Assembly (NCBI GenBank): GCA_963809695.1
Contig: CAWEKI010000009.1
Span: 762,376 to 826,375 of the forward strand
Direction: 5' to 3'
From: an uncultured Bacteroidota bacterium
GTDB lineage: Bacteria > Bacteroidota > Ignavibacteria > UBA10030 > UBA6906
DNA length: 64,000 nucleotides
The notes beneath the pieces are model-generated. The model saw nothing but the letters and a program-made list of their open reading frames with translations, had not been told where the DNA came from and made no database searches. Shown piece by piece: positions 1 through 24,775 of the stretch (positions are counted from its first letter, which is position 1; every line of letters starts with the position of its first letter). The translations under genes and the position numbers were made by a program.

Positions 1-376
1 TGCCTTTCTTCTCAACGTACTCGTAGGCCTTCATCATGTCCCGCGTCGGAATTCCTTCGGTGATGCAGACAATCACGGAGATGTCCGCTTCTCCCGCCTC
101 CAGGATCGCATCGGCCGCGAAGGCTGCGGGGACAAAGATCACGGAGGTGTTCGCACCGGTCTCCCTGACTGCTTCGGCAACGGTGTTGAACACCGGTATC
201 TCCCGGGCGAGAGGATCCCGGTCATTCCCCTTGTACATCGTCCCTCCCTTTCCGGGAGTGACTCCCGCCACCACGTTTGTCCCGTATTCTATCATTTGCC
301 TGGTGTGAAACGTCCCTTCAGCTCCGGTGATCCCCTGGACAACCAGACGCGTTTTTTTGTCAACGAGTATGCTCAT
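1..376 (-). CDS. sucD: succinyl-CoA ligase alpha subunit, N-terminal ~125 aa; gene runs off the window start
   Basis: Minus-strand translation from the ATG at 376..374 reads [25 protein letters not shown] and later [27 protein letters not shown]. These are the canonical SucD N-terminus and CoA-binding region. It is absent from the ORF track because the window edge truncates it. The plus-strand ORF 36..308 is its antisense shadow. Confidence 0.85.
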
Positions 377-8431: not shown

Positions 8432-8803
8432 CTACTTCGGCTTTGCGGTCAGCACTTTCACATCAGGCTTGCCGACAACTCCGGCTTTCTCCATTACTTC
8501 CTTCAGCTTGGGACTGGTCGTGAATGCCTCTGCAGCGGCAGCGCTCGGGAATTCTCCGATGACGCTGATCATGTTAGGATTGTTGACATCAGCATAGACG
8601 CCTGATACCTTGAACCCTGCGTTCTTGCGGTTCGATGCATCCGCATCGAACCCCTTGCGCCAGGAGCTGTAGTCCTTCACCTCGTGCGTGACGATGACGA
8701 AGACCTTTCCGTCATGGGCTGGCATCTTCATCGCCTCCTGAGCTGACACACCTACGGCGAGAAAGAGAGTCATTGCTACCACGAGAAACAGATATTTGGC
8801 CAA
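8432..8803 (-). CDS. small exported hypothetical protein (~120 aa)
   Basis: TTG start preceded by an AAAAGGAGG ribosome-binding site. Signal peptide MAKYLFLVVAMTLFLAVGVSAQ. No recognisable catalytic motif. Confidence 0.5.
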   Translation of the reverse strand: MAKYLFLVVAMTLFLAVGVSAQEAMKMPAHDGKVFVIVTHEVKDYSSWRKGFDADASNRKNAGFKVSGVYADVNNPNMISVIGEFPSAAAAEAFTTSPKLKEVMEKAGVVGKPDVKVLTAKPK

Positions 8804-8989
8804 ATTGGCCTCCTTTTATGATGTGTTTGGGTTGGTGGTGAACTCAGGACTCCTAACCTGGTAGAGGGCAATATAGTTCCTTTGGCTTGTTGAGTGCCGG
8901 CGACTCTTGTCGCCGGACGAGACCCCGATGCTCTTTATCGGGCAGCTACTGGGTAGGCCGCAGTTCGCGGCCGTGACTAACGAGCCTGC

Positions 8990-11158: not shown

Positions 11159-11432
11159 CCTTCCCGAAACCAGCGACTGATGCCGCCACCGCGCGCGATA
11201 TGGCAGGTAACGTTTAGGCAAACCGCCGTGCCGACCGGCCACGTATGAACGACTCATCTCTCGTGGCCGGGCGGCATGGAGCGAGCACGTTACATCTAGC
11301 CAAACCTTGTTTCAACGTCGCCTATCCGGCGTGCGAGCCTGCCTGCGGCAGGCAGGCGCCGGTTTGCCGTTTGTTAGGCGCAGGCAAAGTCCAATATCAA
11401 TCGCGTTTTGCGGCACGTTCCCCCGCGCACCG

Positions 11433-11789
11433 TCATCGCCCGACGATAACTCGGAATCCTCCGTATGCCATTCGCTTCATGTCGAACGGCATTTCCATCG
11501 ACTGATCAGCCGTGCTGGCAATCTCTTTCATTACCTTTGCGTTGACGCGATCACGATGTGCACGTGATCTGAATACGATATAGGAGAATACCACTGTTTC
11601 GCCACGCTTGAGCCTCGTCATCCGTGGAAAGAGTGCACCCCATTTCGGCTTGAGATCATCGCCAACACACTCTTTGTAGTCGAGAGCGCCGTGCTTGCGC
11701 CAGAGTTTCTCCCCGATCCGAGCCATGCGGCTGTAGGCCTTGAGGTTCTTCTTGGGAACAGCGAAAACATATCCGTCGACGTATTTCAT
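11433..11789 (-). CDS. DUF1428 family protein
   Basis: MKYVDGYVFAVPKKNLKAYSRMARIGEKLWRKHGALDYKECVGDDL is the hallmark N-terminus of DUF1428 (YbaA-like). Confidence 0.8.
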   Translation of the reverse strand: MKYVDGYVFAVPKKNLKAYSRMARIGEKLWRKHGALDYKECVGDDLKPKWGALFPRMTRLKRGETVVFSYIVFRSRAHRDRVNAKVMKEIASTADQSMEMPFDMKRMAYGGFRVIVGR

Positions 11790-12340
11790 AAAGAGGCTCC
11801 TTAATAGAAGTTACTGGTTGTATAGCGTGAGTTTCGTGTGCTTCAGGCCACTTCCGCTTGATGTAGTCGATCAGAGGTGCCGCAAAACGCACCATTAAGA
11901 GATACTTTGCTTGCGCCTGACTCTTGGCTCCGCAAAGCGTCTACCCAGACAACCAGGGTCGGTAGCTGCACGCGTTGCGTCTATATCTTGCCTTGTGTGC
12001 ATGGTGCTCATGCTAAACCGCCAATCGAAACAAAAGCCTCCCTACCAAACATCCGGCAAGAAGGCCTGTGTCAAAAAGGGACACTTCAGTGTAATGCGAA
12101 TCTCAGAAACATGCAAGGCGCTGGAACACAAACGCCCGGAGAGGAGCGAGGATTGTTCTTCCTGGTAGAGGGTAACGCCGGCGCCGAGCATTTCCGTTAC
12201 AGGTTCGAATTGCATCTGAGAGCTGACATTCTTGCATTCCTCCGTGATTTGCCATATATTTGATGCGCATCATCGACAGTATCGGCACTTTCGCAAATCG
12301 CGAAAGCTTCGATTCGGCGGATTGGGTATCGTTCAATGAT

Positions 12341-12378
12341 TGCCCCGTCGTCTAATGGCAAGACAGCAGACTCTGGAT
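12341..12378 (+). other. 38-nt fragment identical to the 5' half of tRNA-Gln(CTG), covering acceptor 5' strand through anticodon position 38; not a functional tRNA
   Basis: tgccccgtcgtctaatggcaagacagcagactctggat matches 21961..21998 exactly (38/38), then diverges. No T-arm or 3' acceptor strand follows. Confidence 0.8.
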
Positions 12379-12585
12379 AGACCTGCGGTACCCCTCAGCC
12401 TACCCCAAATCACCATTTCTCAGCAGACCTTTGTCGATCATGTCGATACCTTGTGTCGATATTATCGCGTCATGGAGGTCACGTGAAGACCGTTTTTCGG
12501 ACCTGGAAATGCCATGTGTTCCTCGCCCCGGGTCTGGCACAGACCCACCCTCTGAAATGTCAACGAGTCAAGCAGAAACCCAGCA

Positions 12586-13494
12586 TCATTCATTGAGCAA
12601 GTCGGATGGTTCAATGTGCACCAAGACTTCCGCAACATTTGGATTTGACGTGCGGATCACTTGCCTTACCTGGCGCGCAATGTCGTGTCCGTGCCGGACA
12701 GAGAGATCCCCATCGACAGTCACATGCAGGTCGACGTAATAGGAAAAGCCCATCTTCCGGACATAGCACTTTTCCAACCCGACAACTCCTTCCACGTATT
12801 GTGCGGCTTGTCGGATGCTACGATCGACATCGGGTGATGGGGCGCTATCCATTACTTCATTGATAGCAGGTCGTATAATTCGGTAGGCGTTGAACAGGAT
12901 AATGGTGGAAGCAAAAAATGCAGCGTAGTCGTCCGCACTTTCATATCCAACCCCTCCAATTAACGAAATGGAAATGCCGATGAACGCTGCAGCCGAAGTG
13001 ATTGCATCGCTGCGATGATGCCAGGCGTCGCTCTTGACAGCTGTACTGTTGATGCCTTTTCCCACGCTGAACACGAACCGAAACAGGGATTCTTTTGTAA
13101 CAACGACGAGAACCAGGACCGCGAGCGTAAATGCCGCTGGAGCGTGGTGTGGAGTTAGTATTTCGCGAACACTCTGGATAGCGATGCCGATCGCTGCCCC
13201 AATGAGAGTCAAGGAAACCACCACGGCGGCGAGAGGTTCTGCCTTGCCGTGACCGTAAGGATGGTCAGCATCCGGAGGGAGGGCGGCAATCTTGAGTCCA
13301 CTCCAGACAATAAGAGAGCTAACAATATCGGTGGTTGATTCGATCGCATCGGCTATGAGGGCGTAAGAATTGCCAAGAACGCCCGCAACACCTTTGATCG
13401 TTGCGAGGGCGGCGTTAGCGAGTATTCCAATCAGAGTGGAGCGTAAACCTTTCAGGGCGGAGTGGGACACTTTCATGTTTTGTGGTGATGTCAT
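12586..13494 (-). CDS. cation diffusion facilitator (CDF) family metal efflux transporter
   Basis: 302 aa with six TM segments plus a C-terminal cytoplasmic domain. Motifs: ALIADAIESTTD, DAWHHRSDAITS and the H-rich/D-rich metal sites typical of CzcD/FieF. Confidence 0.85.
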   Translation of the reverse strand: MTSPQNMKVSHSALKGLRSTLIGILANAALATIKGVAGVLGNSYALIADAIESTTDIVSSLIVWSGLKIAALPPDADHPYGHGKAEPLAAVVVSLTLIGAAIGIAIQSVREILTPHHAPAAFTLAVLVLVVVTKESLFRFVFSVGKGINSTAVKSDAWHHRSDAITSAAAFIGISISLIGGVGYESADDYAAFFASTIILFNAYRIIRPAINEVMDSAPSPDVDRSIRQAAQYVEGVVGLEKCYVRKMGFSYYVDLHVTVDGDLSVRHGHDIARQVRQVIRTSNPNVAEVLVHIEPSDLLNE

Positions 13495-13715
13495 TGCCAG
13501 GCCTTAGGTTTCATAAGAAGTCCAGGCAACCCTACCACTGTCCTGAGCGACGCCGTTGAACGGCGAATTTTCCTACCATGCACGAATAATCACGCAAAGT
13601 TGTTGAAGATGTGAAGATGGTTTCGGTTCTCCATGCCCAGTCCGATCACCTGGCTGGCTTCGGAGTAGGGTTCATACAGGCGTCGAGAATTATCCTGTTC
13701 AAGGGGTAATCGTAA

Positions 13716-14678
13716 CTACTTTGGTTGTGGGAATTCCTCGGACGTCGAGACGTTTGCGCTTCCATGTGGTCGCATAATCGAGGCCATAACCGACAGAAGC
13801 AGAATCCCGGCAACAACACCTAACGCGATACCAATCGGTATCTCGTAGATGTCAACAATTACCATCTTCACTCCCACAAAGACGAGGATACCAGAAAGTC
13901 CGTAGTGCAGGTAGTGGAAAAGCTGCATGATCCCGGCCAGTGCAAAGTAAAGTGCGCGCAATCCAAGAATCGCAAACACGTTCGATGAGTAGACGATGAA
14001 CGGGTCCTGTGTGATCGCAAGAACGGCAGGGATCGAATCCACGGCGAACACAACGTCGGTGGTTTCAACCACCAGAAGAACAACGAACAACGGTGTGGCA
14101 AGAACGCGCCCACCCCTTCGGGCGAAGAACCTGCTTTCTTCATATTCCTGAGTCACAGGCATGATGCGCCGGAAGAGCTTGAGGACAGGATTGTTTTCCG
14201 GGTGGATTTCCTTATCCTTGTGCATTGCCATCTTGATGCCGGTGAACATCAGGAACGCCCCGAACAAGTAGATGACCCAATGAAATTGCTGGAGAAGCGT
14301 CACACCGGCCGCAATGAAGATGGCGCGCATGATGAGCGCTCCGAGAATCCCCCAGAAGAGCACCTTGTGCTGATAGAGAGCCGGGACCTTGAAGTAGGAA
14401 AAGGTTAGCAAGAAGACAAAGATGTTATCCACGCTCAGCGACTTCTCAAGGAGGTACCCCGTCGCAAATTCAAGCGCGGTTTGCGGACCGCGCAGGTAGT
14501 ACACCCCTACGCTGAACAGAATGGCTAAGGCGATCCAGAACCCGCTCCACGCGAGCGCTTCTTTAATTCTGACAATGTGAGCCTTGCGATGGAACACCCC
14601 TAGATCAAGCGCCAGCATCGCGAGAACGAGCATGTTGAAGCCAACCCACACGGAGAGATTGTTTGTCACTGAGTCCAT
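13716..14678 (-). CDS. TerC family integral membrane protein
   Basis: Polytopic. Motifs: VWVGFNMLVLAMLALDLGVFHRK, LEKSLSVDNIFVF and VDSIPAVLAITQDPFIVYSSNVFAILGLRALYF match the TerC/Alx family. Start taken at MDSVTNN (14678); the ORF extends to 14750. Confidence 0.85.
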   Translation of the reverse strand: MDSVTNNLSVWVGFNMLVLAMLALDLGVFHRKAHIVRIKEALAWSGFWIALAILFSVGVYYLRGPQTALEFATGYLLEKSLSVDNIFVFLLTFSYFKVPALYQHKVLFWGILGALIMRAIFIAAGVTLLQQFHWVIYLFGAFLMFTGIKMAMHKDKEIHPENNPVLKLFRRIMPVTQEYEESRFFARRGGRVLATPLFVVLLVVETTDVVFAVDSIPAVLAITQDPFIVYSSNVFAILGLRALYFALAGIMQLFHYLHYGLSGILVFVGVKMVIVDIYEIPIGIALGVVAGILLLSVMASIMRPHGSANVSTSEEFPQPK

Positions 14679-14910
14679 TATCAGTCCACCGGATTGAGTC
14701 CCTGGATTATGGCAGCACTTGATCCACGCGATGCACATCCATGTCGACACCTTCGTAGGGCTGTTCGCCTTCGCCGAAGGTGCCGCCGACGGATGGAGTG
14801 CTCAGAGAGAAGTCCCTGACCAGTCCATCGACCGCTTGACACCCTCTTGTCTTCTCGTCAGATAGCCTCCGTACATGATTGCTTTGCCAACCATCAACGC
14901 CCTTGGTTCA

Positions 14911-15219
14911 CTACTTAATTTTGAACACTCGGAACAGTTTGTCCAACGCTCGTTTATCAAGCTCTGCAAGAACATCAATTTCTCCGGCATCAAGCCATAC
15001 GCCGTCGCACGAGCAGCATTTATCTACTTTGATCCCTTTGTAATCGATCTCTCTCAATTCCATCCCGCATTTCGGACATCTCATGTGGTGAAGATCCCGC
15101 AGCATCCTCTTTTCTTCTCCTCCAAGGCTTTTCCGCCGTTCGTGTTCCAGCTGTTTTCTCTTCTCCACTTCGACTCTCGCAAAGTATTCCTCTTCCTTTA
15201 GACTCCGTTGCACGGGCAT
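14911..15219 (-). CDS. zf-TFIIB-type zinc-ribbon domain protein
   Basis: CPKCGMELREIDYKGIKVDKCCSCDGVWLDAGEID is the C-x2-C...C-x2-C-D-G-x-W-L-D zinc-ribbon pattern. The N-terminal half is a charged helix. Confidence 0.65.
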   Translation of the reverse strand: MPVQRSLKEEEYFARVEVEKRKQLEHERRKSLGGEEKRMLRDLHHMRCPKCGMELREIDYKGIKVDKCCSCDGVWLDAGEIDVLAELDKRALDKLFRVFKIK

Positions 15220-15325
15220 TGCGTTAACTCCTTTTTTGTCGTGAATTCATCCAATCCCCATTCGAATGCATTGAGGCCGCGAGCTGACACGAGGAAGGTC
15301 AGAGTTTAGATACGATGGTGTCTTC

Positions 15326-16213
15326 CTACTTTGTATCAAGTATTACAGGCAAACCATCTTTTCCTGCGCCAACGATGATCACCTTGGTGTTCGGTGAGTT
15401 TGCGATCTTCTCTGTTGCTTCAATTCCTTTCCAACGCAGCAACTGTTCGCTGATTCCTGCCGCTACAATTGTCTGGAAGTCGGCGATACCCTTTGCTTCG
15501 ATGCGCTTCCGATCCGCTTCCTGCTTCTCCTTTGTGAGAATGAATTCCATGCGCTGGCTTTCCTGGTCGGCTCGTTGCTTCTGTTCTATCGCTTCGGTGA
15601 GCTGTGTCGGGAGCGCGACATTGCGGATTGGGGTATTCTCAATCGTGACACCCCGAGGGGCAACTGTCGTGGCAAGCCCTTCCTGAATCGATGTACCGAG
15701 CCGCTCCCGTTCGCTTGAATACAATGCGTTGGCCTGAAAGCTTGCCGCGACTGCGCGGCAGATCGATCTGAATTGTGGTATGAGGATAATCGTTTCGTAG
15801 TCGCCGCCGGCAACGGTCTTATAAACGCGCGCCGCTGAGTCGGGATTCAGCCTGTATAGGGCGCTGACCTCCAATCCGATGGTCAGCCCTTCGCGTGAGA
15901 GCACTTGCATCGTTTCCTTGTGTTCTTGCGTCTGGATAGAATACTTGACAACGTTCGCCAGTGGATTTACAACATTGATCCCTGCCCGAAGCGTGTTGTC
16001 CGATACAACGCCGAAAAAATCCACTACACCCACGTGCCCGGCTGGGATCTGCGTGAAACACTGGAGTAAGGCAACTGTTCCAAACACCCCCGCAGCGAGA
16101 ATGCTTCCTCGTGCAACGGGGCGGAATGCGTTGTTTTGTCGCACCTGTTTCGTGGCGCTTCGCCATACGATGAGGGCCACAATGGCAATAACTACTGATA
16201 GGATGAATAACAT
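15326..16213 (-). CDS. SPFH / band-7 (prohibitin-stomatin-like) domain protein
   Basis: N-terminal TM helix, then an SPFH core (PAGHVGVVDFFGVVSDNTLRAGINVVNPL...VLSREGLTIGLEVSALYRL) and a C-terminal coiled coil. Start at 16213 has an AAAGGAG ribosome-binding site. Confidence 0.85.
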   Translation of the reverse strand: MLFILSVVIAIVALIVWRSATKQVRQNNAFRPVARGSILAAGVFGTVALLQCFTQIPAGHVGVVDFFGVVSDNTLRAGINVVNPLANVVKYSIQTQEHKETMQVLSREGLTIGLEVSALYRLNPDSAARVYKTVAGGDYETIILIPQFRSICRAVAASFQANALYSSERERLGTSIQEGLATTVAPRGVTIENTPIRNVALPTQLTEAIEQKQRADQESQRMEFILTKEKQEADRKRIEAKGIADFQTIVAAGISEQLLRWKGIEATEKIANSPNTKVIIVGAGKDGLPVILDTK

Positions 16214-16306
16214 GATGTACTCCTTTGCGGGTATGTGTGTACACATTCTCTCTTGAGTGGCGACTACCACCTTACGTCTAACACACTGTTCGTCCGGTCG
16301 ATGACT

Positions 16307-17407
16307 TCACTCCCCAGTGAAAGTGCCCGCAGTGACTCCATCGCCGTCGTATTGGTGCAAAGAACTGTTTTGGGGAAACGTCGTCCGAAATCGCAGCAGG
16401 CATCCTACACCGCCAAGCCGATCCAACGCCTCACTCTGATTGACGATTTCGATTGTACATCGATGTTGTTCGGCGAGTGTCACCATCTTGTCCTTCATGT
16501 GGAATTCCGGGTCGAAAGATTCCGCCATCACAAGAACGTCTGTAACACCCAACTGCAGAGCTTCCAATGTAGCCTCTGCACCAGCAACTGCAAGGCCGTC
16601 TGTATTGATCTCTCGAACAAGTCGGTCGACCATCTCCAGTGACTCCTGCTCTTCCCTTTCCACAAACGCGGCAATTGTCCTGGTGACAATGTCTTGAACG
16701 TTGGCTTGACGGGATATGTCCACTACATCGACGAACTTTGCAGAAAGATGATGTGGGAGTGCGTTCCGCAACTGCCATGCCGATTCACCCGCCAGGATGA
16801 GATGTGTGTGGCCTCCGGACGACATCACACGGTCGAGCACCTTGACCTCTTCCTGCATAAATGTCTCCCTCCGAAGTGCCCGGCGGTGCTGGTACTGCTG
16901 TCTCGTCCACGTCTGATCAACATGTTCACGGAGCTTGGGCTGAGCAGTCCAGAGTTGTTTCGTTACCTCCCCGAGATTCACTTCCAATATGCGCACGCCT
17001 TTGTAGTTCAAGGCGACTACCACGTACCGATGATATGTATCTTTCATCTCCACCAAGTGATAGACGTTGGGATAGGGGCCCACAGCGATCATATTGGGAA
17101 GTGGAGGCTTGAACTGAAGCGGCAGAAAGAACGGACGTAATCCGCCGCGGGCAAATATTGCCGCACCCCGACCCGTCCGGTACATTTCCTCCGACATGTA
17201 ACGACCGACACTCTCCATTGCTTGCTGGAAATGAGAGAGGTGGCCTAGCGGGAGGCTGTCCTTAAGCAATGACACCCGATGCTTGGTGAATTCCCGCAGT
17301 TCTGCCGCACTGTTCTGGAGATTCATGTAGACGCTGACCACTGGCGCTTCGGTTTCTTCGAGTGCGACCAGCATGCGTATGTGATCTTGTAGTTCCTTGA
17401 GTTCCAT
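16307..17407 (-). CDS. bacterial eRF1/Pelota-like (baeRF1-type) protein
   Basis: 366 aa. The C-terminal segment DGLAVAGAEATLEALQLGVTDVLVMAESFDP matches the conserved motif of eRF1 domain 3 / Pelota C-terminal domain (G-x-A-V-Y-G-x-x-E-V-x-x-A-L-E-x-G-A-V-x-x-L-L-V-S-D). The overall length and N/M/C organisation fit this family. GGGGAG ribosome-binding site. Confidence 0.6.
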   Translation of the reverse strand: MELKELQDHIRMLVALEETEAPVVSVYMNLQNSAAELREFTKHRVSLLKDSLPLGHLSHFQQAMESVGRYMSEEMYRTGRGAAIFARGGLRPFFLPLQFKPPLPNMIAVGPYPNVYHLVEMKDTYHRYVVVALNYKGVRILEVNLGEVTKQLWTAQPKLREHVDQTWTRQQYQHRRALRRETFMQEEVKVLDRVMSSGGHTHLILAGESAWQLRNALPHHLSAKFVDVVDISRQANVQDIVTRTIAAFVEREEQESLEMVDRLVREINTDGLAVAGAEATLEALQLGVTDVLVMAESFDPEFHMKDKMVTLAEQHRCTIEIVNQSEALDRLGGVGCLLRFRTTFPQNSSLHQYDGDGVTAGTFTGE

Positions 17408-17672
17408 TCGCGATTCTCCCCTTTTGTAGCTAAAGATGGCTGTAGATCAACTACTCCAAGGCGTCACCGTGCAATTGTCTTGAGAAGACCTCCCACAGCT
17501 TGTTGCGCAGCCGGGGGGGCAACTCCAAGCCAGTACAACCGATTGCTACAGAGGAAGAAGTAATGAACCCTCCCATGCCCTCGCAAACGAAAAACGTGTG
17601 TTCCGCATTGTTTTCTTCTCGGGCATTTTTCCGCCTTCTGCAATTGTTGTCATGGAATCACAGGATCCCCGG

Positions 17673-18626
17673 TCACTGCCGGCGGACGAGCTCAACGATT
17701 TGGTTAACGTCGATTGCGCCGGCCTTTTGCTGGATCTCACCGGAATAGCGCGTGTGCATGCTCTTCCCCTGATTCAGCCGCGATGCGAAGAGTTTTTTGA
17801 GCCGGTTGACGTCAATAATGCGTCCGCATTCGTAGTACTGCCGGGCCACTTGGCCCAACGCATAGGTGGTCGCAAACGAGAAGGCGGAACCGACAGCCGC
17901 GGATCCCAGTCCGCCCAGCATGCTGCCACCAACATTCTTGAGCAGCCCACCAAGGAGCTTGCGCCCCATTTGCTCGATGTACTGCCCCGTGATTCCTACT
18001 CCGAGCGTCGCCGCGAAATCCTTTATATGTCCGCGGTCTAGCTCGTATCCGTATGACTTGCCGATAGAGTACACCATCTTCATTTGCAACGGAAGAATGG
18101 CCATTGACGCGAGCGATTGTGGTAGAAGTTCCAGTGCTCCATTGAGGATTGAGTAATTCAGTATTGTTGCGTCCAGTGCTGCTACATCCACTACCGCTCG
18201 CGCGCTGGCCGATTGCATTACCGGTGCCAGTGCCCTGCCAGACTCTACGGGAGTGTTAGCGATTTTAGCGGCTTCCTCCGCGAAGGCTTGGGCCGATGTG
18301 GGATCAAGCGCTAACTTGGTTCGTAGGCGACCCAGAAACACCCTTTCCGCCTCATTGTGTGTTCCATCTGTATCGCATACGCATACGGCCATCTCGTAAG
18401 CGAGCTGACGTGATTCGGTGCTGATCAGTTCCGGAACGGCATCGTCCAACGTCCACCGCTTAAGGAGGACATCTTGATAGAGTCTGGAAAGGTCGATGGC
18501 AGGGCCAGACACCAGGCTCTCAGAGATGCGTTTGATCTGGACGCGTTCCCTTTCGTCCTTACAACCGTCGGCGAAAGCAGCCATCAGACATATGCTTAGC
18601 ACAGCTTCTTGTTCTCGTTCGTTCAT
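17673..18626 (-). CDS. TerB-like (tellurite-resistance TerB / DUF533-like) domain protein with a Gly-rich C-terminal region
   Basis: The N-terminus EQEAVLSICLMAAFADGCKDERERVQIKRI is the TerB-type helical motif (h-x2-h-A-x-A-D-G-x5-E). The C-terminal half GGLLKNVGGSMLGGLGSAAVGSAF is glycine-zipper-like. GGAGGT ribosome-binding site at the MNEREQ start. Confidence 0.55.
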   Translation of the reverse strand: MNEREQEAVLSICLMAAFADGCKDERERVQIKRISESLVSGPAIDLSRLYQDVLLKRWTLDDAVPELISTESRQLAYEMAVCVCDTDGTHNEAERVFLGRLRTKLALDPTSAQAFAEEAAKIANTPVESGRALAPVMQSASARAVVDVAALDATILNYSILNGALELLPQSLASMAILPLQMKMVYSIGKSYGYELDRGHIKDFAATLGVGITGQYIEQMGRKLLGGLLKNVGGSMLGGLGSAAVGSAFSFATTYALGQVARQYYECGRIIDVNRLKKLFASRLNQGKSMHTRYSGEIQQKAGAIDVNQIVELVRRQ

Positions 18627-18976
18627 TGCACCTCCTCGCAATTGAATCTTGATTGTGGGCCCCGGATGTTGCCGAGAAGGATCCGGTTGATCTATGATAT
18701 ACTATCGTGTTGTGGAATCTGAAAGCTGCGGCATCCAGCACTTTTGTGATGGATGCTTGACATGCAAAAACAGCGCACGGGGCTTTGCGCATCACCTTTG
18801 TCGCAACGCTGCCGAGCTACGCCTGCGCCAGCCCCGTGCGTCCTGACTCCCATACCCATGGTTGTCCGCCTTTTCTTCTCTGCGCACGGGATGATCTGAA
18901 CCAAGGGCTGCCCAATCCCGGACGAGGACCTCACAGGCGCCTCCCTTGCTCCTGGCTCCTTTTGCCAGGCGAGCCA

Positions 18977-19375
18977 CTATTTCAGGGATCTTATGCTTTG
19001 CTGACATGCCATCATTCTCCTTTCAGTGCCATGCTTCCAGTTTCTCAGGTCAATCCCAAGATGTGATTTGATCACCACGATTAACGTCTCCACAGGAGTA
19101 ATCCCTTCGATGATGCAAAGGATCTGTTCCTTGTGGAAGATCACTGCCGGCGCATGTGTGATGCCAAGCCGCGCCAGAGCCTCACTCCCTTCGCAATTGC
19201 GGAGAATGTAGAGATCAATATCGTCCTGGACTATCGTGGCGAGTTGTTGCATGATTCGCATTTGCATTCTGCATGTTCCGAACGTCTCCGAGTGAACATA
19301 CAAAACCGACGGCTTTGACGATTCAAGAGCACGGGATTCAAATTCGCGAGCGGAAATCTCAACTAACCGAGTCAT
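18977..19375 (-). CDS. thioredoxin-like fold protein (no CxxC motif)
   Basis: KPSVLYVHSETFGTC...LGITHAPAVIFHKEQILCIIEGITPVETLIVVIKSH has the beta-alpha-beta / beta-beta-alpha topology signature of the thioredoxin family. GGAGGA ribosome-binding site. Confidence 0.5.
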   Translation of the reverse strand: MTRLVEISAREFESRALESSKPSVLYVHSETFGTCRMQMRIMQQLATIVQDDIDLYILRNCEGSEALARLGITHAPAVIFHKEQILCIIEGITPVETLIVVIKSHLGIDLRNWKHGTERRMMACQQSIRSLK

Positions 19376-19592
19376 AGTGTTATCCTCCGGATGGATGTCT
19401 TGTTCCTGAAACAGGCACACTCTAGTTTCATCTTGCGAGACACGTATTCACCTGCGGCTTGCAGCGCACCCGGGACAAACCCGCAGCCCTTCGGTGCTGC
19501 CTCGCACCTGAACGAAGCCCCAGAGCGATGCGCACTGTCTGCACTGCACTCTCCGTGTGAATGCCGGTGGTCATCGCTCCTTCCTTGCACAC

Positions 19593-19943
19593 TTACAAAG
19601 GTTCCAGATAGATGACGATGATCAGATCCTCCGGCTGAGTTCCAAAGATGTAGTGAATGCGCTTGATGCCTCTTTGGAGAAACTCAGCTATCCTCGCCCA
19701 CAAAACATGTTCTGATTTCTTGAATAAGTGCTCGCGCAGTTCGTGATACGATGCAACCGTGATTCCATTCCTTTCACGCAAGCCTCGTTCGGCGGGTGGC
19801 AGAAGACCCCGTATAAGCACTATAGCGATGTCTTCGGTGATTTCAGTTTTCATCTCGCTGGGATTTGCTCCCACATGGGCGACCAGGAAATTCTTCACAA
19901 TAAGATTGACCCCTTTCGCCAGACTTTGTGTTGTGGTGTCCAT
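19593..19943 (-). CDS. DUF2294 (MpsC-like) family protein
   Basis: 116 aa. LIVKNFLVAHVGANPSEMKTEITEDIAIVLIRGLLPPAERGL is the DUF2294 signature. It is paralogous to 21056..21421. Confidence 0.7.
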   Translation of the reverse strand: MDTTTQSLAKGVNLIVKNFLVAHVGANPSEMKTEITEDIAIVLIRGLLPPAERGLRERNGITVASYHELREHLFKKSEHVLWARIAEFLQRGIKRIHYIFGTQPEDLIIVIYLEPL

Positions 19944-20413
19944 GATACGATCTCCGTGCCTGATTGGGAATGGAGTGGAATAATGTGCGAAAACGTGACG
20001 GCCTGCTGCTTCCCGATCATCACAGTGACCTCTGCGCCAACCACGAAACCCGACGCTGCAAGCTCTCCTCTGAATGTCTTGACACTGGGTGCGCCACGTC
20101 TCATCTTGTTCGACATGATGGCAATGACAACGCCAGCTGGACGAGGACCTTTCGGATCGTGGAACTTTTGTTCACCGCCGTGGTCGATCCAGAAGCACGC
20201 ACGACTAACCTGCGCATTGGCAATCCATCCCTTCGGATATAGAATCCCGAAGCCGAAGGCCGGATCCGTGGACACTTGTCTCCCGCGGATCTCGGGGAAG
20301 TCAAGTTCTATCTGCGTGGTGAACCGGGCCATAGGTAGGCCGAGCATTACCATGCCAACGCTCAACAGAACCCTGTATTCATGCGAAATCCACCTTTCAC
20401 AGTCTTGCCTCAA
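19895..20413 (-). CDS. hypothetical protein (possible membrane-anchored)
   Basis: 172-aa ORF with a hydrophobic N-terminal segment, overlapping the upstream gene by 49 nt in another frame. Chosen over the antisense ORF 19728..20417, which is Cys/Trp-rich and non-protein-like. The call is weak. Confidence 0.3.
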   Translation of the reverse strand: MRQDCERWISHEYRVLLSVGMVMLGLPMARFTTQIELDFPEIRGRQVSTDPAFGFGILYPKGWIANAQVSRACFWIDHGGEQKFHDPKGPRPAGVVIAIMSNKMRRGAPSVKTFRGELAASGFVVGAEVTVMIGKQQAVTFSHIIPLHSQSGTEIVSWTPQHKVWRKGSILL

Positions 20414-21055
20414 GTGATTGGCGGATATGCACCCGCGGCAGCCAGCTCGGGCAAGTAAGACTTAGGGAACAATCAGAAAATGTTGCGGGGCTAGAATACT
20501 GGGGGTGCTTTGTTGCAGAGCGTGGAGTAGTAGAGAGAGCGATTGCAGAAAGAAGGGAGAAGCGAAATGACAACAGGGGGTTGATTCGCAGGGCGTGGTA
20601 CCGCCACTCTTGAAGGGACGCCTGGAGAAGGGGAAGACCGTTTTACCGCTCTCTTGAGCCCATGGTCGTTGACCGATAGGCTCGTTCCCTCCGTGGACGC
20701 GATGAAATCAGAACGAATCTCCTTCTTCGCCAGAGGCGGTGTCGAAGGCCGCCACTCCTTGACGCCTGCCACACTGATTGAGCCAGCGGCAAGGAGAACA
20801 ACGACGATATTTCTGGCAAAGCAGAGCATTGGCTGTACGCCTGATTCTTGTACTGCTATTGAACCGATCTACTTGACTTCATGAAACGAAAAAACCAACG
20901 CTTGTCATCATAATCGTGACTTGCATTGGTTTACCGTTCACCAAATCTCCCCTGAGCTAGAGGGAATATCTCGTGACCCGTCTACCTGATTTGTACAGAC
21001 TTCACACTCAATATACCGCCGATCACATTCAATGTCAAGCAGAATCGGTAGAGAC

Positions 21056-21421
21056 TCACGAGAGTCCTCTCTGTGTGAAGACAATAATGCGTTCGCCCGT
21101 CTTAGCGCTGATATCCGAGTGCATGCTCACAACATCGCGGGCAGTGATTTGCTTGATGAGGCCCTTTACCATATCCTTTGAGTTCTCGATGAGCATTTGA
21201 CGCATTTCTTTTAGCAACTTTACACCAGCCAGATCTTTTGACAGTTGCATTTCTGCGGGGGTCAGAACGCCCTCCAGTCGTACAATGATCATATCGTCAA
21301 GAATGTACGTCTGCACACGGTTCGGTCCCCGTCCCATGTGTTCTCGCTCGAACTTAACCATCGCTTCGCTAATTTGGGCTTCAAGTTGCCCTTTGGATTT
21401 CTGAGGCATGTTGGAGTGCAT
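21056..21421 (-). CDS. DUF2294 (MpsC-like) family protein
   Basis: LEAQISEAMVKFEREHMGRGPNRVQTYILDDMIIVRLEGVLTPAEMQL is the DUF2294 N-terminal motif. Confidence 0.7.
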   Translation of the reverse strand: MHSNMPQKSKGQLEAQISEAMVKFEREHMGRGPNRVQTYILDDMIIVRLEGVLTPAEMQLSKDLAGVKLLKEMRQMLIENSKDMVKGLIKQITARDVVSMHSDISAKTGERIIVFTQRGLS

Positions 21422-21913
21422 GAAAGTTCACCCAGGATTCACTGATACCATAATGTACATAAATGTCAGTCAATATTCACTTCGCACTCTTTTGAAACGC
21501 CATTCTCTCTTTACCAGCCCATTGGATTAACCATCCAATTGCAGCAGTCGCAAGCGGTCTCCGCATTTCTAAGGGCGCGTGGCAAAATTAGGCCCGTTGT
21601 CTGAGCTAAGATCAGGGTGTATTGCAGAATTAGACACTCTGTAACCCTAAAAGCACAGAAGTTCGTTAGTAGGATTACCAAATACAAGCAGGTCAATCTA
21701 AGCACCGTTGCCACATTGCTTAGCGACCCTCTAGTGCCGTTCCAATTTATTCTGTCGGTATTTTCCTCCGCGCCGAATAAATTGAAATGGCACCAGGAGG
21801 ACACGATCCAGTCAAACACAGGTGAGAGAGGGAGGAAGAATGAACACCCCCAAGTGTTGACAGAATTGCGTATAACTGTTGATAGAAAACGGCCACGAAG
21901 AATGTAAACACCG

Positions 21914-21942
21914 TTGACACTTTGGTACAATTTGTGTAAATT
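21914..21942 (+). promoter_or_regulatory. sigma-70-type promoter for tRNA-Gln: TTGACA, 17-nt spacer, TAAATT
   Basis: Perfect -35 hexamer at 21914..21919 and a -10 hexamer at 21937..21942, 18 nt upstream of the tRNA 5' end. It sits at the end of a 535-bp AT-rich non-coding stretch. Confidence 0.5.
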
Positions 21943-21960
21943 AACTGCGCTTTACACGTT

Positions 21961-22034
21961 TGCCCCGTCGTCTAATGGCAAGACAGCAGACTCTGGATCT
22001 GCTTATCGAGGTTCGAATCCTTGCGGGGCAGCCA
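21961..22034 (+). tRNA. tRNA-Gln (anticodon CTG), CCA encoded
   Basis: 7-bp acceptor stem tgccccg/cggggca with U1-A72. Anticodon loop cuCUGga. T-loop GGTTCGAATCC. Discriminator G followed by CCA. Confidence 0.9.
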
Positions 22035-22037
22035 CTA

Positions 22038-22071
22038 GCATTTTGGATTGCGGATTTTGGATTTTGGACTG
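22038..22071. repeat. left arm of a ~34-bp imperfect inverted repeat built of aaaatcc units, flanking the four-helix-bundle gene
   Basis: gcattttggattgcggattttggattttggactg is the reverse complement, with one unit transposed, of 22545..22578 cagaccaaaatccgcaatccaaaatccaaaatgc. Confidence 0.8.
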
Positions 22072-22162
22072 TTATCGCAAGCTGAGTACAGTCTCAATTC
22101 CAATTGCTATTTGAAAACTGGACCATGAACTGCCACACCCATTCGTTCAGAAGGAGTGTAGA

Positions 22163-22531
22163 GTGGCTGGCATCGAGCAGGATCTAAAGCAACGGATGAA
22201 GAAACTCGGCGTAGAGATCATCCGCATGGTTGAGGGTCTGCCTCACCAGCTTGGTGCTGAAACCATCGGCAAACAAATCATCCGATGTGCAACATCGATC
22301 GGGGCCAATTATCGCGCAGCCTGCCGTGCACGGTCAAAAGCCGACTTCATCGCAAAGATTGCTATTGCAGAAGAAGAGAGCGATGAAACGATGTACTGGC
22401 TTGAAGTGCTTCAGGAGTTGAAACTTGTTGAAGCCCAATCATTCGATGAGTTGCACCGTGAAGCTGAAGAGCTTACAAAAATCCTTGTGGCTTCCGGCAG
22501 AACGGCAAAACAGAGCATGGCAACGAAGTAA
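22163..22531 (+). CDS. four-helix-bundle protein (23S rRNA intervening-sequence protein / Avd-like family)
   Basis: 122 aa reading LKQRMKKLGVEIIRMVEGLPHQLGAETIGKQIIRCATSIGANYRAACRARSKADFIAKIAIAEEESDETMYWLEV. The conserved S-I-x-x-N-x-x-E-G and E-x-x-Y-W-L motifs of TIGR02436 are present. It is flanked by long inverted repeats as in rRNA IVS elements. Confidence 0.8.
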   Translation: MAGIEQDLKQRMKKLGVEIIRMVEGLPHQLGAETIGKQIIRCATSIGANYRAACRARSKADFIAKIAIAEEESDETMYWLEVLQELKLVEAQSFDELHREAEELTKILVASGRTAKQSMATK

Positions 22532-22544
22532 TCACTGCCACTCA

Positions 22545-22578
22545 CAGACCAAAATCCGCAATCCAAAATCCAAAATGC
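22545..22578. repeat. right arm of the inverted repeat flanking the four-helix-bundle gene
   Basis: Partner of 22038..22071. It ends 5 nt before tRNA-Glu. Confidence 0.8.
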
Positions 22579-22583
22579 TCGTT

Positions 22584-22754: not shown

Positions 22755-23840
22755 CTATTGATACGCGGCCCTCTCTAATTCGTCAACCGATTTAAACGGT
22801 GTTGGTGGCTTCAGATACTTTGCGAGGAAATTGTAGATCTTCATCCGTGTCTCCTTCGCAAGCTTCGTGTCGATCCTGTCGAAGCTGTGTCCTCCCGGCG
22901 CGTCCGTAACAATCTCATACTCGAACTTCTTCCCGGCCGCTTTCAGCGCTTCGATGAGATGTTCCACTTCGAGGACGTTCACATCGTCGTCGTTCGTATT
23001 CGTGTGGATGAGAAGAGGCGTGTTGAGCTCCTTGACGTGGTTCACCGGCGAGCGTTTCCTGTATTCGGCCACATCTTCGTTCGCAGTCTTGCCAAGATGG
23101 TACGGTGCCGAAAATTCCTGCCGATAATCATCGTCGTAGTATCCCATCCGCTGGACGAGGTCGCTCACCGGCACGCCGGCGAAGGCCACCTGGTAGTCGC
23201 TCGGGTGCTGAAAGATATCCATGAGCGTAATGAGTCCTCCGTGACTCCAGCCGATCGCGCCGACTCTACCGCCGTCCACGAAGTCATAATTCTGGATCAT
23301 GTAGTTGCGCGCGGCGTGGTTGTCGTCCACCTCCAGCCCGCCGTAGTCGATCTTCTCATAGAAGGATTTGCCATATCCCGTGCTGCCCCGGTATTCCGGA
23401 GCCACCACGATGTATCCCTGCGCGATCAGCTCGCGGATGATATGGGTATGATAGGTCGTAAAGTCGGCATGGACACCGCCATGTGGCAGCACCAGGAGGG
23501 GATATTTCTTTGAATGGTCAAGCTTTCGCGGGGCGAAAATGTATGCCCAGAATTTCAGCGGATTGCGGGCTCCCATGGCCGTGGGATTTTGCACATGGGC
23601 AGGAGGAGGCCCGACAATATAGACCTTGTCGATGCTGGCCACATCGCTGACCTTGTCATACCAGAGTACGTCATCCACCGCTTTTGCGAGCTGGTCGATG
23701 CGGTGGTCGAGCGCTTCGAATTTCTTGTCCAGCAGCTTTTCTAGCCGGGCGTTGTCATTGTCTTTCTCCTGCGAGAAGGCCGGACCGGAGAGAAGAATGA
23801 GAATGAACGCCGCCACAAGGGCGAATGCAGAGGATTTCAT
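22755..23840 (-). CDS. S9 family peptidase / alpha-beta hydrolase (prolyl oligopeptidase-type catalytic domain), secreted
   Basis: Signal peptide MKSSAFALVAAFILILLSGPAFSQ. Catalytic-domain motifs: VVAPEYRGSTGYG, IGWSHGG (the nucleophile elbow G-x-S-x-G), and a C-terminal D...H region. Confidence 0.8.
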   Translation of the reverse strand: MKSSAFALVAAFILILLSGPAFSQEKDNDNARLEKLLDKKFEALDHRIDQLAKAVDDVLWYDKVSDVASIDKVYIVGPPPAHVQNPTAMGARNPLKFWAYIFAPRKLDHSKKYPLLVLPHGGVHADFTTYHTHIIRELIAQGYIVVAPEYRGSTGYGKSFYEKIDYGGLEVDDNHAARNYMIQNYDFVDGGRVGAIGWSHGGLITLMDIFQHPSDYQVAFAGVPVSDLVQRMGYYDDDYRQEFSAPYHLGKTANEDVAEYRKRSPVNHVKELNTPLLIHTNTNDDDVNVLEVEHLIEALKAAGKKFEYEIVTDAPGGHSFDRIDTKLAKETRMKIYNFLAKYLKPPTPFKSVDELERAAYQ

Positions 23841-24078
23841 AGAGCACACGAGAGAAGTGAGAGAGAGCAAAAATGAAACGAATGTGATAAAAGATACTCT
23901 TCGGGAAGACGACAATCAATCAAGAAGCGCAAGGAGTTAAAGAATGGAAGATGGAGAATCGAAAATCGAGGATGGAGGGATTTTTCTCCTCAAGATGAAG
24001 AAGTCCAAAAAAACTTGGCCCCCATCTCGGAAAAACGACTTACGGACTGTAATACATATAGGAAGGAGGAAGCAATCA

Positions 24079-24459
24079 ATGGCCAAAGGAGACGATCTAC
24101 AGGAACGGTTCGTGAAACTGGCGGCTGCAGTGATTCAGTTGACCAGGAAGCTGCCGAAGGATGATGGGGGAAAACACCTGGGTGGGCAAATATTGCGCAG
24201 CGGAACTTCACCGGCACCTAATTACGCCGAGGCGAGAGGAGCAGAGAGCGACAAGGATGTTGTGCACAAGCTGGGCATCGTGCTAAAGGAGTTAAATGAG
24301 ACGGTTGTGTGGCTCCAGGTGGGAGCATGCAGCAACATCTGCACAGAAGAGGCGGTGGCCGGAATTCTGGAGGAGTGCCGGGTGCTGGCCAGGATCATTG
24401 CGGCGAGCATTAGCACGGTCAAAAGAAGAGTAGGAGCATTACCTGGTAGTGGCAGCTGA
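24079..24459 (+). CDS. four-helix-bundle protein (23S rRNA IVS protein / Avd-like family), second copy
   Basis: KGDDLQERFVKLAAAVIQLTRKLPKDDGGKHLGGQILRSGTSPAPNYAEARGAESDKDVVHKLGIVLKELNETVVWLQV matches the same family pattern as 22163..22531. GGAAGGAGGA ribosome-binding site before the ATG at 24079. The ORF-track extension back to 23944 is translated repeat DNA. Confidence 0.75.
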   Translation: MAKGDDLQERFVKLAAAVIQLTRKLPKDDGGKHLGGQILRSGTSPAPNYAEARGAESDKDVVHKLGIVLKELNETVVWLQVGACSNICTEEAVAGILEECRVLARIIAASISTVKRRVGALPGSGS

Positions 24460-24496
24460 TGTACAAGGGCGGATAAAAAAGACAACTCCAGCTTTG

Positions 24497-24596
24497 AGAG
24501 CCGGAGTTGATCGAAGATGAAGATTCGAGAATCGAAGATCGAAAATGACCCGCAATTCTCGATCCTCGATTTTCAATCCTCGATTTTCGATTCTTG
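24497..24596. repeat. hairpin/inverted-repeat element with atcgaaaatcgagga units, lying between the second four-helix-bundle gene and the 3' end of tRNA-Arg(ACG)
   Basis: gaagattcgagaatcgaagatcgaaaatg...attctcgatcctcgattttcaatcctcgattttcgattc contains complementary arms. A related left copy, ggagaatcgaaaatcgaggatgg, sits at 23950..23975. Confidence 0.5.
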
Positions 24597-24670
24597 TGCG
24601 CCTGGAGGGACTCGAACCCCCAACCGTCTGATCCGTAGTCAGGCACTCTATCCAATTGAGCTACAGGCGC
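24597..24670 (-). tRNA. tRNA-Arg (anticodon ACG); no encoded CCA
   Basis: Reverse complement GCGCCTGTAGCTCAATTGGATAGAGTGCCTGACTACGGATCAGACGGTTGGGGGTTCGAGTCCCTCCAGGCGCA. Acceptor gcgcctg/caggcgc, anticodon loop cuACGga, T-loop GGTTCGAGTCC. Confidence 0.85.
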
Positions 24671-24775
24671 ATTTGGACATCAAATATACGAAACCTCGTG
24701 CAGCAATGCAACCTGGTTTGGACAGTCGTCGGGATTCTCCAGAACTGGATAGGCATCTCCGTTCATCTGTCGCTC

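What the first reader, a model, noticed from the sequence alone, without database searches (positions are those of the whole stretch)
12341..22034. 9.6-kb candidate island delimited by a 38-bp direct repeat of the 5' half of tRNA-Gln
12341..12378 is an exact copy of tRNA-Gln nucleotides 1-38 (through the anticodon). The intact tRNA sits at 21961 in the same orientation. The interval between them carries an all-minus-strand block of stress and membrane genes: CDF efflux transporter, TerC, zinc-ribbon protein, SPFH, eRF1/Pelota-like protein, TerB-like, thioredoxin-like, and two DUF2294 proteins. Immediately before the intact tRNA lies a 535-bp AT-rich non-coding stretch with a textbook TTGACA-17-TAAATT promoter. 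A duplicated 5' tRNA half is less common than 3'-end duplication, but it fits an element that brought its own tRNA 5' portion and promoter. No integrase is present; the 800-bp non-coding stretch 11790..12586 could hold its remains.
Basis: partly seen in the sequence, partly recalled or inferred. Interest (0 to 1): 0.6.

Follow-up and report, generated by a model that had tools for sequence, protein, structure and literature searches.

The report
Old integrase-less insertion splitting tRNA-Gln
A 9.6-kb block of stress and membrane genes lies between a leftover copy of the first half of the tRNA-Gln gene and the working gene; it is probably the decayed remnant of a rare but known kind of insertion that replaces the front half and promoter of a tRNA gene, and the leftover half-gene with its flanks is oddly well conserved in a distant relative.

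Summary
An exact 39-bp direct repeat (12340-12378 = 21960-21998) covers one base upstream plus tRNA-Gln(CTG) nt 1-38 and ends at the 3' edge of the anticodon loop.

Relatives support the insertion topology. One lineage (L096) has the fragment-type upstream region (A) joined directly to an intact tRNA-Gln. Its sister lineage (L084) has A-fragment-C, 1.15 kb of cargo, then B-promoter-tRNA. The window has the same with 9.4 kb of cargo. The insert ends C (12379-12461) and B (21848-21959) are conserved and the cargo is not. Island genes have low GC3 (p = 4e-5).

It is not a recent, self-contained island:
- There is no integrase or integrase remnant anywhere in the window.
- The ends have diverged as much as the neighbouring chromosomal gene.
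- The cargo is mosaic.

The 800-bp "non-coding stretch" holds a conserved ~230-nt module: a promoter-like site, 9-mer repeats GTATCGACA, the tRNA-derived core, and inverted repeats TGTCGATAC. The core is 37/37 identical between lineages while its flanks are 59-75% identical.

Best reading: a decayed, CIME-like 5'-fragment tDNA island, possibly one member of a tandem accretion. This is a rare but known kind. The conserved module remains unexplained.

The parts
12232..12260 (+). Promoter-like site upstream of the fragment: TTGCAT-N17-TATATT. L084 has TTGCTT-N17-TATATT at the same place.
   Evidence: It is below the threshold of the consensus scan. Conserved between window and L084.
12263..12325 (+). 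Repeat unit U(+) of the A region, with the 9-mers cATCGACAg (12270-12278) and GTATCGGCA (12279-12287).
   Evidence: Orthologous to L084 8407-8474 and L096 4288-4351 (z = 6-16).
12340..12378 (+). Left direct repeat: the displaced 5' half of tRNA-Gln (nt -1 to 38). It is preceded by ATGAT (12336-12340), which is the ancestral leader of the gene in relatives.
12379..12461 (+). Conserved left end of the insert (C): CCCCTC, TCACCATTTCTCAGCAGA, and three inverted 9-mers TGTCGATCA / TGTCGATAC / TGTCGATAT (12432-12462). This is U(-).
   Evidence: 75% identical to L084 8539-8623 (z = 23). Homology stops right after the last 9-mer.
12462..21847 (-). Variable cargo, all on the minus strand: CDF 12586-13494, TerC 13716-14750, Zn-ribbon 14911-15219, SPFH 15326-16270, baeRF10/eRF1_3 16307-17407, DUF533/TerB-like 17673-18641, Trx-like 18977-19420, MpsC 19593-19943, unknown 19895-20413, unknown 20491-20829, MpsC 21056-21421.
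   Evidence: No homology to the 1.15-kb cargo of L084. GC3 median 0.57 against 0.68 for core genes.
21848..21959 (+). Conserved right end of the insert (B): distal U(+)-like unit with TTGACA (21857), then the promoter TTGACA (21914-21919)-17-TAAATT (21937-21942) and the leader.
   Evidence: Orthologous to the sequence upstream of tRNA-Gln in L084 and L094 (z = 5.6-14).
21960..21998 (+). Right direct repeat, inside the intact gene.
21961..22034 (+). Intact tRNA-Gln(CTG).

Best explanation
The two 39-bp repeats are the left and right junctions of an old site-specific insertion into the anticodon loop of tRNA-Gln(CTG). The insert carried a promoter and tRNA nt about -5 to 38 at its right end (B, 21848-21998). 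It displaced the earlier promoter, leader and 5' half, which remain as A plus the fragment (12232-12378).

Shown:
- The repeat itself.
- The junction lies at the 3' edge of the anticodon loop in three alleles.
- An 'A + whole tRNA' arrangement exists in a relative.
- The insert ends are conserved and the cargo is variable.
- The cargo composition is atypical.

Inferred:
- A tyrosine integrase made the insertion. It has since been lost or acts in trans.
- What remains is a decayed, integrase-less (CIME-like) element whose cargo has turned over.
- The A region may itself be the right end of an earlier related element. In that case the junction A-core-C looks like an attP because it joins two tandem elements (accretion).
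- The intact gene is now transcribed from the insert-borne TTGACA-17-TAAATT promoter.
For: - Exact 39-bp repeat, same orientation, 5' fragment upstream of the gene.
- Identity ends after the last base of the anticodon loop in the window, L084 and L090, which have three different continuations.
- L096-type loci (9 samples) have the A-type region directly upstream of an intact tRNA-Gln, with no fragment and no B promoter.
- L084-type loci have A-fragment-C-1.15 kb-B-tRNA.
- C and B are conserved between window and L084 (75% and 59%; 41-50% just beyond them). The cargo is unrelated.
- Identity between L096 and L084 drops from 92.7% to 67% at the tRNA 5' end.
- In L096 a primase-type mobile element reaches to within about 75 nt of the A repeats.
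- Cargo GC3 is low (p = 4e-5) and the tetranucleotide distance peaks there.
- The configuration is known: 159 of 3919 Islander islands have a 5' fragment. Integrase-less CIMEs and tandem accretion are described. Replacement of a target gene's 5' end and promoter is described for the dusA islands.
Against: - No integrase, excisionase or remnant in the interval, in either non-coding stretch, or in any large ORF of the 64-kb window. None in the 1.4-kb L084 insert either.
- The B promoter is present in three diverged lineages, and the ends are as diverged as the chromosomal IVP gene. So there is no sign of recent mobility.
- A and C carry the same 9-mer in inverted orientation. A simple attL made of a native flank plus an element arm does not predict this.
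- The fragment is 37/37 identical between lineages whose flanks are 59-75% identical (P about 2e-6 if neutral). An old dead remnant does not explain this without gene conversion or selection.
- The only possible empty site in the window's own species (L083) rests on a single base.
- The far end of the L096 element was not seen.
Confidence: 0.55

Rival explanations
1. The A-core-C module is a functional, selected non-coding unit that arose from an old partial duplication of the tRNA-Gln 5' region. It could be a hairpin-closed RNA carrying a tRNA-Gln 5' half, an antisense RNA to tRNA-Gln driven from the inverted U unit, or a protein-binding platform made of the 9-mers. On this view the DNA between it and the gene is an ordinary variable region, not an island.
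For: - The core is 37/37 identical while the flanks are 59-75% identical.
- A promoter-like site is conserved in both lineages.
- The same 9-mer is conserved as sequence on both sides.
- The inverted arms give a long stem in L084 (z = -5.6).
- The U unit contains a promoter-like TCGACA-16-GACAAT.
- Two minus-strand terminator-like hairpins lie just left of the module.
- The module stays linked to the tRNA-Gln operon although all other synteny is lost.
Against: - The stem is weak in the window (z = -1.5).
- L090 lacks the right arm entirely.
- L096 has the A region driving the real gene, with no module.
- No Rfam family matches.
- Only two to three independent sequences are available, so covariation cannot be tested.
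- This reading does not explain why the cargo is compositionally atypical.
Confidence: 0.2
2. There was no site-specific recombinase. The perfectly conserved tRNA sequence serves as a patch of identity for homologous recombination between diverged genomes. The fragment is a by-product of such exchanges or of an illegitimate duplication, and it is kept identical by gene conversion from the intact gene.
For: - L090 differs from L084 only by a roughly 230-nt diverged patch that starts exactly at the end of the core.
- Identity between L096 and L084 changes abruptly at the tRNA.
- No integrase is present.
Against: - Homologous recombination does not create a 5'-half duplication with a new promoter.
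- The break at the anticodon-loop edge, and the left limit at about -5, fit an att core better.
- A 37-nt tract is at the lower limit for efficient conversion.
Confidence: 0.15
3. There were two paralogous tRNA-Gln genes, and one was truncated by a random deletion, leaving a plain pseudogene.
For: The left limit of identity lies near the mature 5' end, as expected for paralogues.
Against: - The same truncation point is found in two diverged lineages, with conserved sequence on both sides.
- The remnant has no substitutions.
- The relatives' loci show only one tRNA-Gln(CTG) gene per locus.
Confidence: 0.05
4. The structure is an assembly artefact, a chimeric join at a tRNA.
For: The window comes from a metagenome-type assembly, a single contig of about 832 kb.
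Against: - Independent short-read contigs from ERR12035935 carry both junctions and stop at the repeat as expected.
- The same architecture is assembled in at least 5 JGI samples for the L084 lineage.
Confidence: 0.02

Closest known systems
tDNA-integrated genomic islands with a displaced 5' tDNA fragment (Islander class; 159 of 3919 islands; anticodon-centred site A)
   Same: Intact tRNA gene plus a same-orientation end fragment upstream. The island lies in between. Identity ends at the anticodon loop. Length is within 2-200 kb. The restored gene must use an island-borne promoter (PMC4383910).
   Different: No integrase, which Islander requires. The ends are conserved across diverged lineages with complete cargo turnover. 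The fragment's outer flank carries the same repeats as the island's inner end.
CIMEs (cis-mobilizable elements) and tandem accretion at att sites, e.g. ICESt1/ICESt3-related elements (PMC5704250)
   Same: [quoted passage not shown] It lies next to a site where full mobile elements insert. A junction between two elements looks like an attP.
   Different: Described CIMEs sit at the 3' ends of target genes in Firmicutes and derive from identified ICEs. Here no parent element, integrase or mobilization has been shown.
pTN3-like archaeal integrases (attB = 5' half of a tRNA gene) and bacterial dusA-specific islands (which replace the 5' end of dusA)
   Same: The element replaces the 5' part of the target gene and supplies a new promoter (PMC8371274; PMC4482086).
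   Different: Both have an integrase next to or across the att site. pTN3 elements are archaeal, and dusA is a protein-coding gene.

Membership tests
tDNA genomic island (Islander criteria) | Intact tDNA plus a cognate fragment in the same orientation on the same replicon | tested here: met
   39-bp exact repeat, both copies on the + strand.
tDNA genomic island (Islander criteria) | The fragment is an end fragment in the correct configuration (5' fragment upstream of the gene) | tested here: met
   The fragment is nt 1-38 and lies 9.6 kb upstream. The rule is stated in PMC4383910.
tDNA genomic island (Islander criteria) | Crossover at a recognised sublocation (anticodon loop, T loop or 3' end) | tested here: met
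   Identity ends after the last anticodon-loop base in the window, L084 and L090.
tDNA genomic island (Islander criteria) | Tyrosine integrase gene inside or overlapping the island | tested here: not met
   Pfam scans of all island ORFs, of ORFs in both non-coding stretches and of the window's large ORFs found no Phage_integrase.
tDNA genomic island (Islander criteria) | Length of 2-200 kb, with the fragment not inside a conserved CDS domain | tested here: met
   Spacing is 9620 bp. ORFs over the fragment have no Pfam hit.
tDNA genomic island (general) | Unoccupied site in a related genome | tested here: inconclusive
   L096-type loci have A plus an intact tRNA-Gln, but their A region is only 67% identical to that of L084 and abuts another mobile element. 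L083, from the window's own species, rests on one discriminating base.
CIME (cis-mobilizable element) | attL and attR retained; integration and transfer genes lost | tested here: met
   Perfect repeats are present, with no recombination or transfer genes. This is a sequence-level test only.
CIME (cis-mobilizable element) | Derived from an ICE or IME, and mobilizable in cis after accretion | not testable with these tools
   No parent element was identified. Contig look-ups were exhausted before the far end of the L096 element was seen.
Functional tRNA or tRNA-like RNA | Recognised by tRNA or Rfam models as a folded RNA | tested here: not met
   ARAGORN and Rfam find nothing at 12340-12470, even at E <= 1.

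The most novel reading that the evidence does not exclude
The ~230-nt A-core-C module (12232-12461) is not debris. It is a maintained functional site: an attP-like docking platform made of inverted arrays of GTATCGACA around a tRNA-Gln(-5..38) core. It lets a trans-acting recombinase swap integrase-less gene cassettes in and out upstream of tRNA-Gln. Alternatively, or in addition, it yields a hairpin or antisense RNA that neutralises the orphan tRNA half. This would explain the perfect core across lineages, the sequence-level conservation of the 9-mers, the complete cargo turnover between conserved ends, and the allele switch exactly at the core edge in L090.
Probability: 0.2. Interest if true: 0.65.

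Novelty: new member of a known kind. Interest (0 to 1): 0.4.

Why it matters
Islands that replace the 5' half of a tRNA gene are only about 4% of mapped tDNA islands, and integrase-based finders miss those that have lost their integrase. This locus gives a documented example in an uncultured FCB-group bacterium, with three natural states: uninterrupted, a 1.4-kb insert, and a 9.6-kb insert. It shows that insert ends can persist while the cargo is completely exchanged. If the conserved module proves to be functional, it would point to a cassette-exchange or RNA-level mechanism tied to a tRNA gene. Otherwise it is an ordinary decayed island.

Tried and rejected
- **Synteny through the right-flank peptidase S9 (genome scan).** The gene is widespread and not linked to the tRNAs.
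- **Metagenome scan with baeRF.** One relative, L082. Only baeRF and SPFH are shared.
- **Integrase remnants in 11790-12586 and 20420-21960.** None at E <= 5.
- **A retro-copied mature tRNA half.** Rejected, because the fragment also carries the gene's 5' leader ATGAT.
- **Direct paralogy between the A and B upstream regions.** Not significant (z < 1.5). The only link runs through C and the U unit.
- **The module in phages, plasmids or IMG/VR.** No hits except phage tRNA-Gln genes.
- **The primase-type element next to tRNA-Gln in L096.** Its relatives sit at tRNA-Ser (with an integrase) and near tRNA-Gly. They carry no tRNA-Gln 5' half.
- **The 18-mer of the arm repeats in viral contigs.** Eight hits, about chance level. 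L112 has ori-like iterons after a rep helicase, but it was selected by the motif and is not evidence.
- **Invertible-promoter idea.** No inverted variant in any of about 20 contigs.
- **PADLOC on the cargo.** No hits.
- **Literature on baeRF with SPFH.** Nothing useful found.
Full report
**1. The observation**

ARAGORN and Rfam place an intact tRNA-Gln(CTG) at 21961-22034. An exact direct repeat of 39 bp links 12340-12378 to 21960-21998. It covers one T upstream plus tRNA nt 1-38. About 7e-15 such pairs are expected by chance in 64 kb. Identity stops at the last base of the anticodon loop plus one. No copy of the 3' half exists elsewhere in the window.

All genes between the repeats are on the minus strand: CDF, TerC, Zn-ribbon, SPFH, baeRF_family10/eRF1_3, DUF533/TerB-like, thioredoxin-like and two MpsC/DUF2294, plus two ORFs without a family. 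TTGACA-17-TAAATT lies at 21914-21942.

Two short-read contigs from sample ERR12035935 carry the island genes. They end at about 21989 and about 12349, exactly where a k=31 assembly must break at a 39-bp repeat. The structure is therefore not an artefact of one assembly.

**2. Relatives**

The first two collection scans gave little. The peptidase S9 gene is not syntenic. The baeRF gene gave one relative, L082, which shares only the baeRF-SPFH pair (81% nucleotide identity) and diverges at the SPFH stop codon.

The useful handle was the "23S rRNA IVP" gene between tRNA-Gln and tRNA-Glu. Its homologues led to three further lineages. All have the same tRNA-Gln sequence and the cluster tRNA-Gln, IVP, tRNA-Glu, followed by tRNA-Arg(ACG) where the contig is long enough to show it (L084- and L096-type loci).

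- **L084 type (10 contigs).** The intact gene is preceded by a region homologous to the window's B region, the TTGACA-17-TAAATT promoter (z = 13). A second copy of tRNA-Gln nt 1-37 lies 1.38 kb upstream in the same orientation. Homology to the window continues on both sides of that copy.
- **L094.** It has the B-type promoter plus tRNA-Gln. The contig is too short to show more.
- **L096 type (9 contigs show this; L084 and L096 are 92.7% identical downstream of the tRNA).** The intact gene is preceded directly by the A-type region, the sequence that precedes the fragment in the window and in L084 (z = 15.7 against L084's A, about 0 against any B). There is no separate fragment within 4.4 kb and no B promoter.

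Three natural states therefore exist:

| State | Arrangement |
|---|---|
| L096 | A-tRNA |
| L084 | A-frag-C-1.15 kb-B-tRNA |
| Window | A-frag-C-9.4 kb-B-tRNA |

C (window 12379-12461) is 75% identical between the window and L084, and B (21848-21959) is 59%. Identity falls to 41-50% immediately beyond both. The cargo is unrelated.

**3. What does not fit a simple recent island**

- **No recombinase.** No integrase, excisionase or remnant was found in the island, in either non-coding stretch, or in any large ORF of the window. The 1.4-kb L084 insert has none either.
- **The insert is old.** The ends are as diverged between lineages as the adjacent IVP gene, which is 66% identical. The B promoter occurs in three lineages.
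- **The cargo is mosaic.** See L082 above. Sample ERR12037368 has an identical CDF protein followed by a different gene. L001 shares only DUF1428 and its upstream region with the window.
- **Composition is only moderately atypical.** Cargo GC is 0.522 against 0.552 for the window. GC3 has a median of 0.57 against 0.68 (Mann-Whitney p = 4e-5). The tetranucleotide distance peaks at 15-18 kb.

**4. The module around the fragment**

In order it contains:

- a promoter-like TTGCAT-N17-TATATT (TTGCTT-N17-TATATT in L084);
- 9-mers GTATCGACA / GTATCGGCA;
- a leader ending in ATGAT, which is the ancestral leader of the gene in L084 and L094;
- the tRNA-derived core;
- CCCCTC ... TCACCA-TTCT-AGCAGA;
- three inverted 9-mers TGTCGATAC.

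In L084, C is an inverted copy of A over about 58 nt (z = 11.7). C also resembles the inverted distal part of B (z = 5.2). L090's replacement allele resembles distal B in direct orientation (z = 4.2-4.8). A profile of this unit, U, finds copies only at this locus: U(+) in A, U(-) in C, and U(+) in distal B (these hits are the profile's own training members).

The arms give a long stem in L084 (z = -5.6) but a weak one in the window (z = -1.5). In L096 the 9-mers themselves form a promoter-like TCGACA-16-GACAAT upstream of the real gene.

The core is 37/37 identical between the window and L084, although the flanks are 59-75% identical. The probability is about 2e-6 if the core evolved neutrally. 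L090 is a strain of the L084 species. It is 99-100% identical to L084 except for a patch of about 230 nt that starts exactly after core nt 37 and lacks the right arm.

**5. Interpretation**

The best-supported reading is an old site-specific insertion at the anticodon loop, in the rare 5'-fragment configuration. It is now an integrase-less remnant with conserved ends and exchanged cargo.

Because A and C share the same inverted repeats, I think the junction A-core-C is most simply a junction between two related elements, that is, tandem accretion. On that view A is the right end of an earlier element and C is the left end of the later one. Three observations fit this:
- In L096 a primase-type mobile element (BT4734_N + PriCT_1, DUF5659) reaches to within about 75 nt of the A repeats.
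- Identity between L096 and L084 drops from 92.7% to 67% at the tRNA 5' end.
- Relatives of that primase element are integrated next to other tRNAs, one with an integrase.

I could not see the far end of the L096 element because contig look-ups were exhausted. Whether A is native or element-borne therefore stays open.

The possible empty site in the window's own species is L083. It reads GA + whole tRNA + IVP and is 100% identical to the window from the tRNA onward. It rests on one discriminating base and is also compatible with a B variant.

The main rival is that the module is a selected functional unit, either an RNA or a protein-binding site, and that the interval is ordinary variable DNA. 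The perfect core, the sequence-level conservation of the 9-mers, and the persistent linkage to the tRNA operon despite loss of all other synteny keep this rival alive.

**6. Comparison with what is known**

- In Islander, 159 of 3919 islands have a 5' tDNA fragment. The configuration seen here is the accepted one, but an integrase is required (PMC4383910).
- Archaeal pTN3-like integrases use the 5' half of a tRNA gene, and the restored gene is expressed from an element promoter. The review describes this as seldom seen in bacteria (PMC8371274).
- Bacterial dusA islands replace the 5' end of their target and provide a promoter (PMC4482086).
- Elements that lost their integration genes but kept attL and attR are called CIMEs and occur in tandem accretions (PMC5704250).

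The locus meets every sequence criterion of a tDNA island except the integrase. I therefore file it as a decayed member of that kind, not as an active island.

**7. Verdict**

This is a new member of a known but rare kind. Interest is moderate (0.4) because of the unexplained conservation of the module.

Noticed in passing
window 22034-22582 and 23940-24595; L084 9953-10423; L094; L096 4451-4921: Each '23S rRNA IVP' (four-helix-bundle) gene is enclosed by inverted repeats of about 39 nt built from 7-nt units (GGATTTT and GAAAATC types) that abut tRNA genes. The 40-48 nt after tRNA-Gln pair with the 40-48 nt before tRNA-Glu in all four lineages (-23 to -49 kcal/mol). This is an IVS-like cassette inside a tRNA operon.
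   Followed up: partly
window 22755-24711: In relatives tRNA-Arg(ACG) follows tRNA-Glu by 30 nt on the same strand. In the window it is inverted (24596-24670, minus strand) and separated by a peptidase S9 gene and a second IVP cassette. The sequence upstream of it (24678-24711, TTGCAT-N17-TATATTTGATG) resembles the promoter-like site upstream of the tRNA-Gln fragment (12232-12265; 74% over 34 nt).
   Followed up: partly
window 15326-17407; L082 1-2040: The SPFH gene and the eRF1-like (baeRF family 10) gene form a conserved pair. It is 81% identical at the nucleotide level in a metagenome contig with otherwise different neighbours, and homology ends at the SPFH stop codon. No PADLOC match.
   Followed up: partly
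window 8766-8838; L084 9466-9536: A 73-nt non-coding piece (79% identical) contains the palindrome GGCCAAATTGGCC overlapping a Shine-Dalgarno-like AAGGAGG on the minus strand, just before an ATG. In L084 it lies inside the insert's cargo. In the window it lies 3.5 kb left of the fragment. It may be a shared 5'-UTR element.
   Followed up: no
window 11200-11918; L001: The DUF1428 gene and its upstream region occur in another sample with an identical protein but unrelated sequence on both sides. Homology breaks at 11918 and 11200. The neighbourhood left of the fragment is therefore also mosaic.
   Followed up: partly
Logan contig from ERR12037368 (no DNA available): A CDF protein identical to window 12586-13494 is followed, 283 nt after its stop, by a 199-aa gene with no Pfam family. 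The window has the tRNA fragment and non-coding DNA there instead. This is another arrangement in the same species.
   Followed up: no
L095 4559-4622 (GCA_003157155.1): In this MAG the tRNA-Gln gene stops after nt 24 and about 89 nt are missing compared with the otherwise identical L096. This is either a real deletion or an assembly error.
   Followed up: no
L090 192-365: This strain-level allele is 99-100% identical to L084 except for a diverged patch of about 230 nt. The patch starts exactly after the tRNA-derived core, lacks the TGTCGATAC repeats, and contains a distal-B-like TGTTGACA...GAAAC stretch.
   Followed up: yes
L112 8836-9022: A viral contig has iterons using the same 9-mer (TGTCGATAC three times interleaved with TAACGATAC, then GTATCGACA inverted). 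They lie right after an AAA_25/DnaB-like helicase gene and near an arm-binding integrase and a cI-like repressor. This is probably a replication origin. It was found by searching for the motif, so the match may be coincidence.
   Followed up: partly
window 35337-62909: A long run of minus-strand genes encodes large secreted proteins with T9SS sorting tails and FlgD_ig, Laminin_G_3 and Listeria-Bacteroides repeat domains. It follows a polysaccharide-biosynthesis cluster at 27.6-35.1 kb.
   Followed up: no
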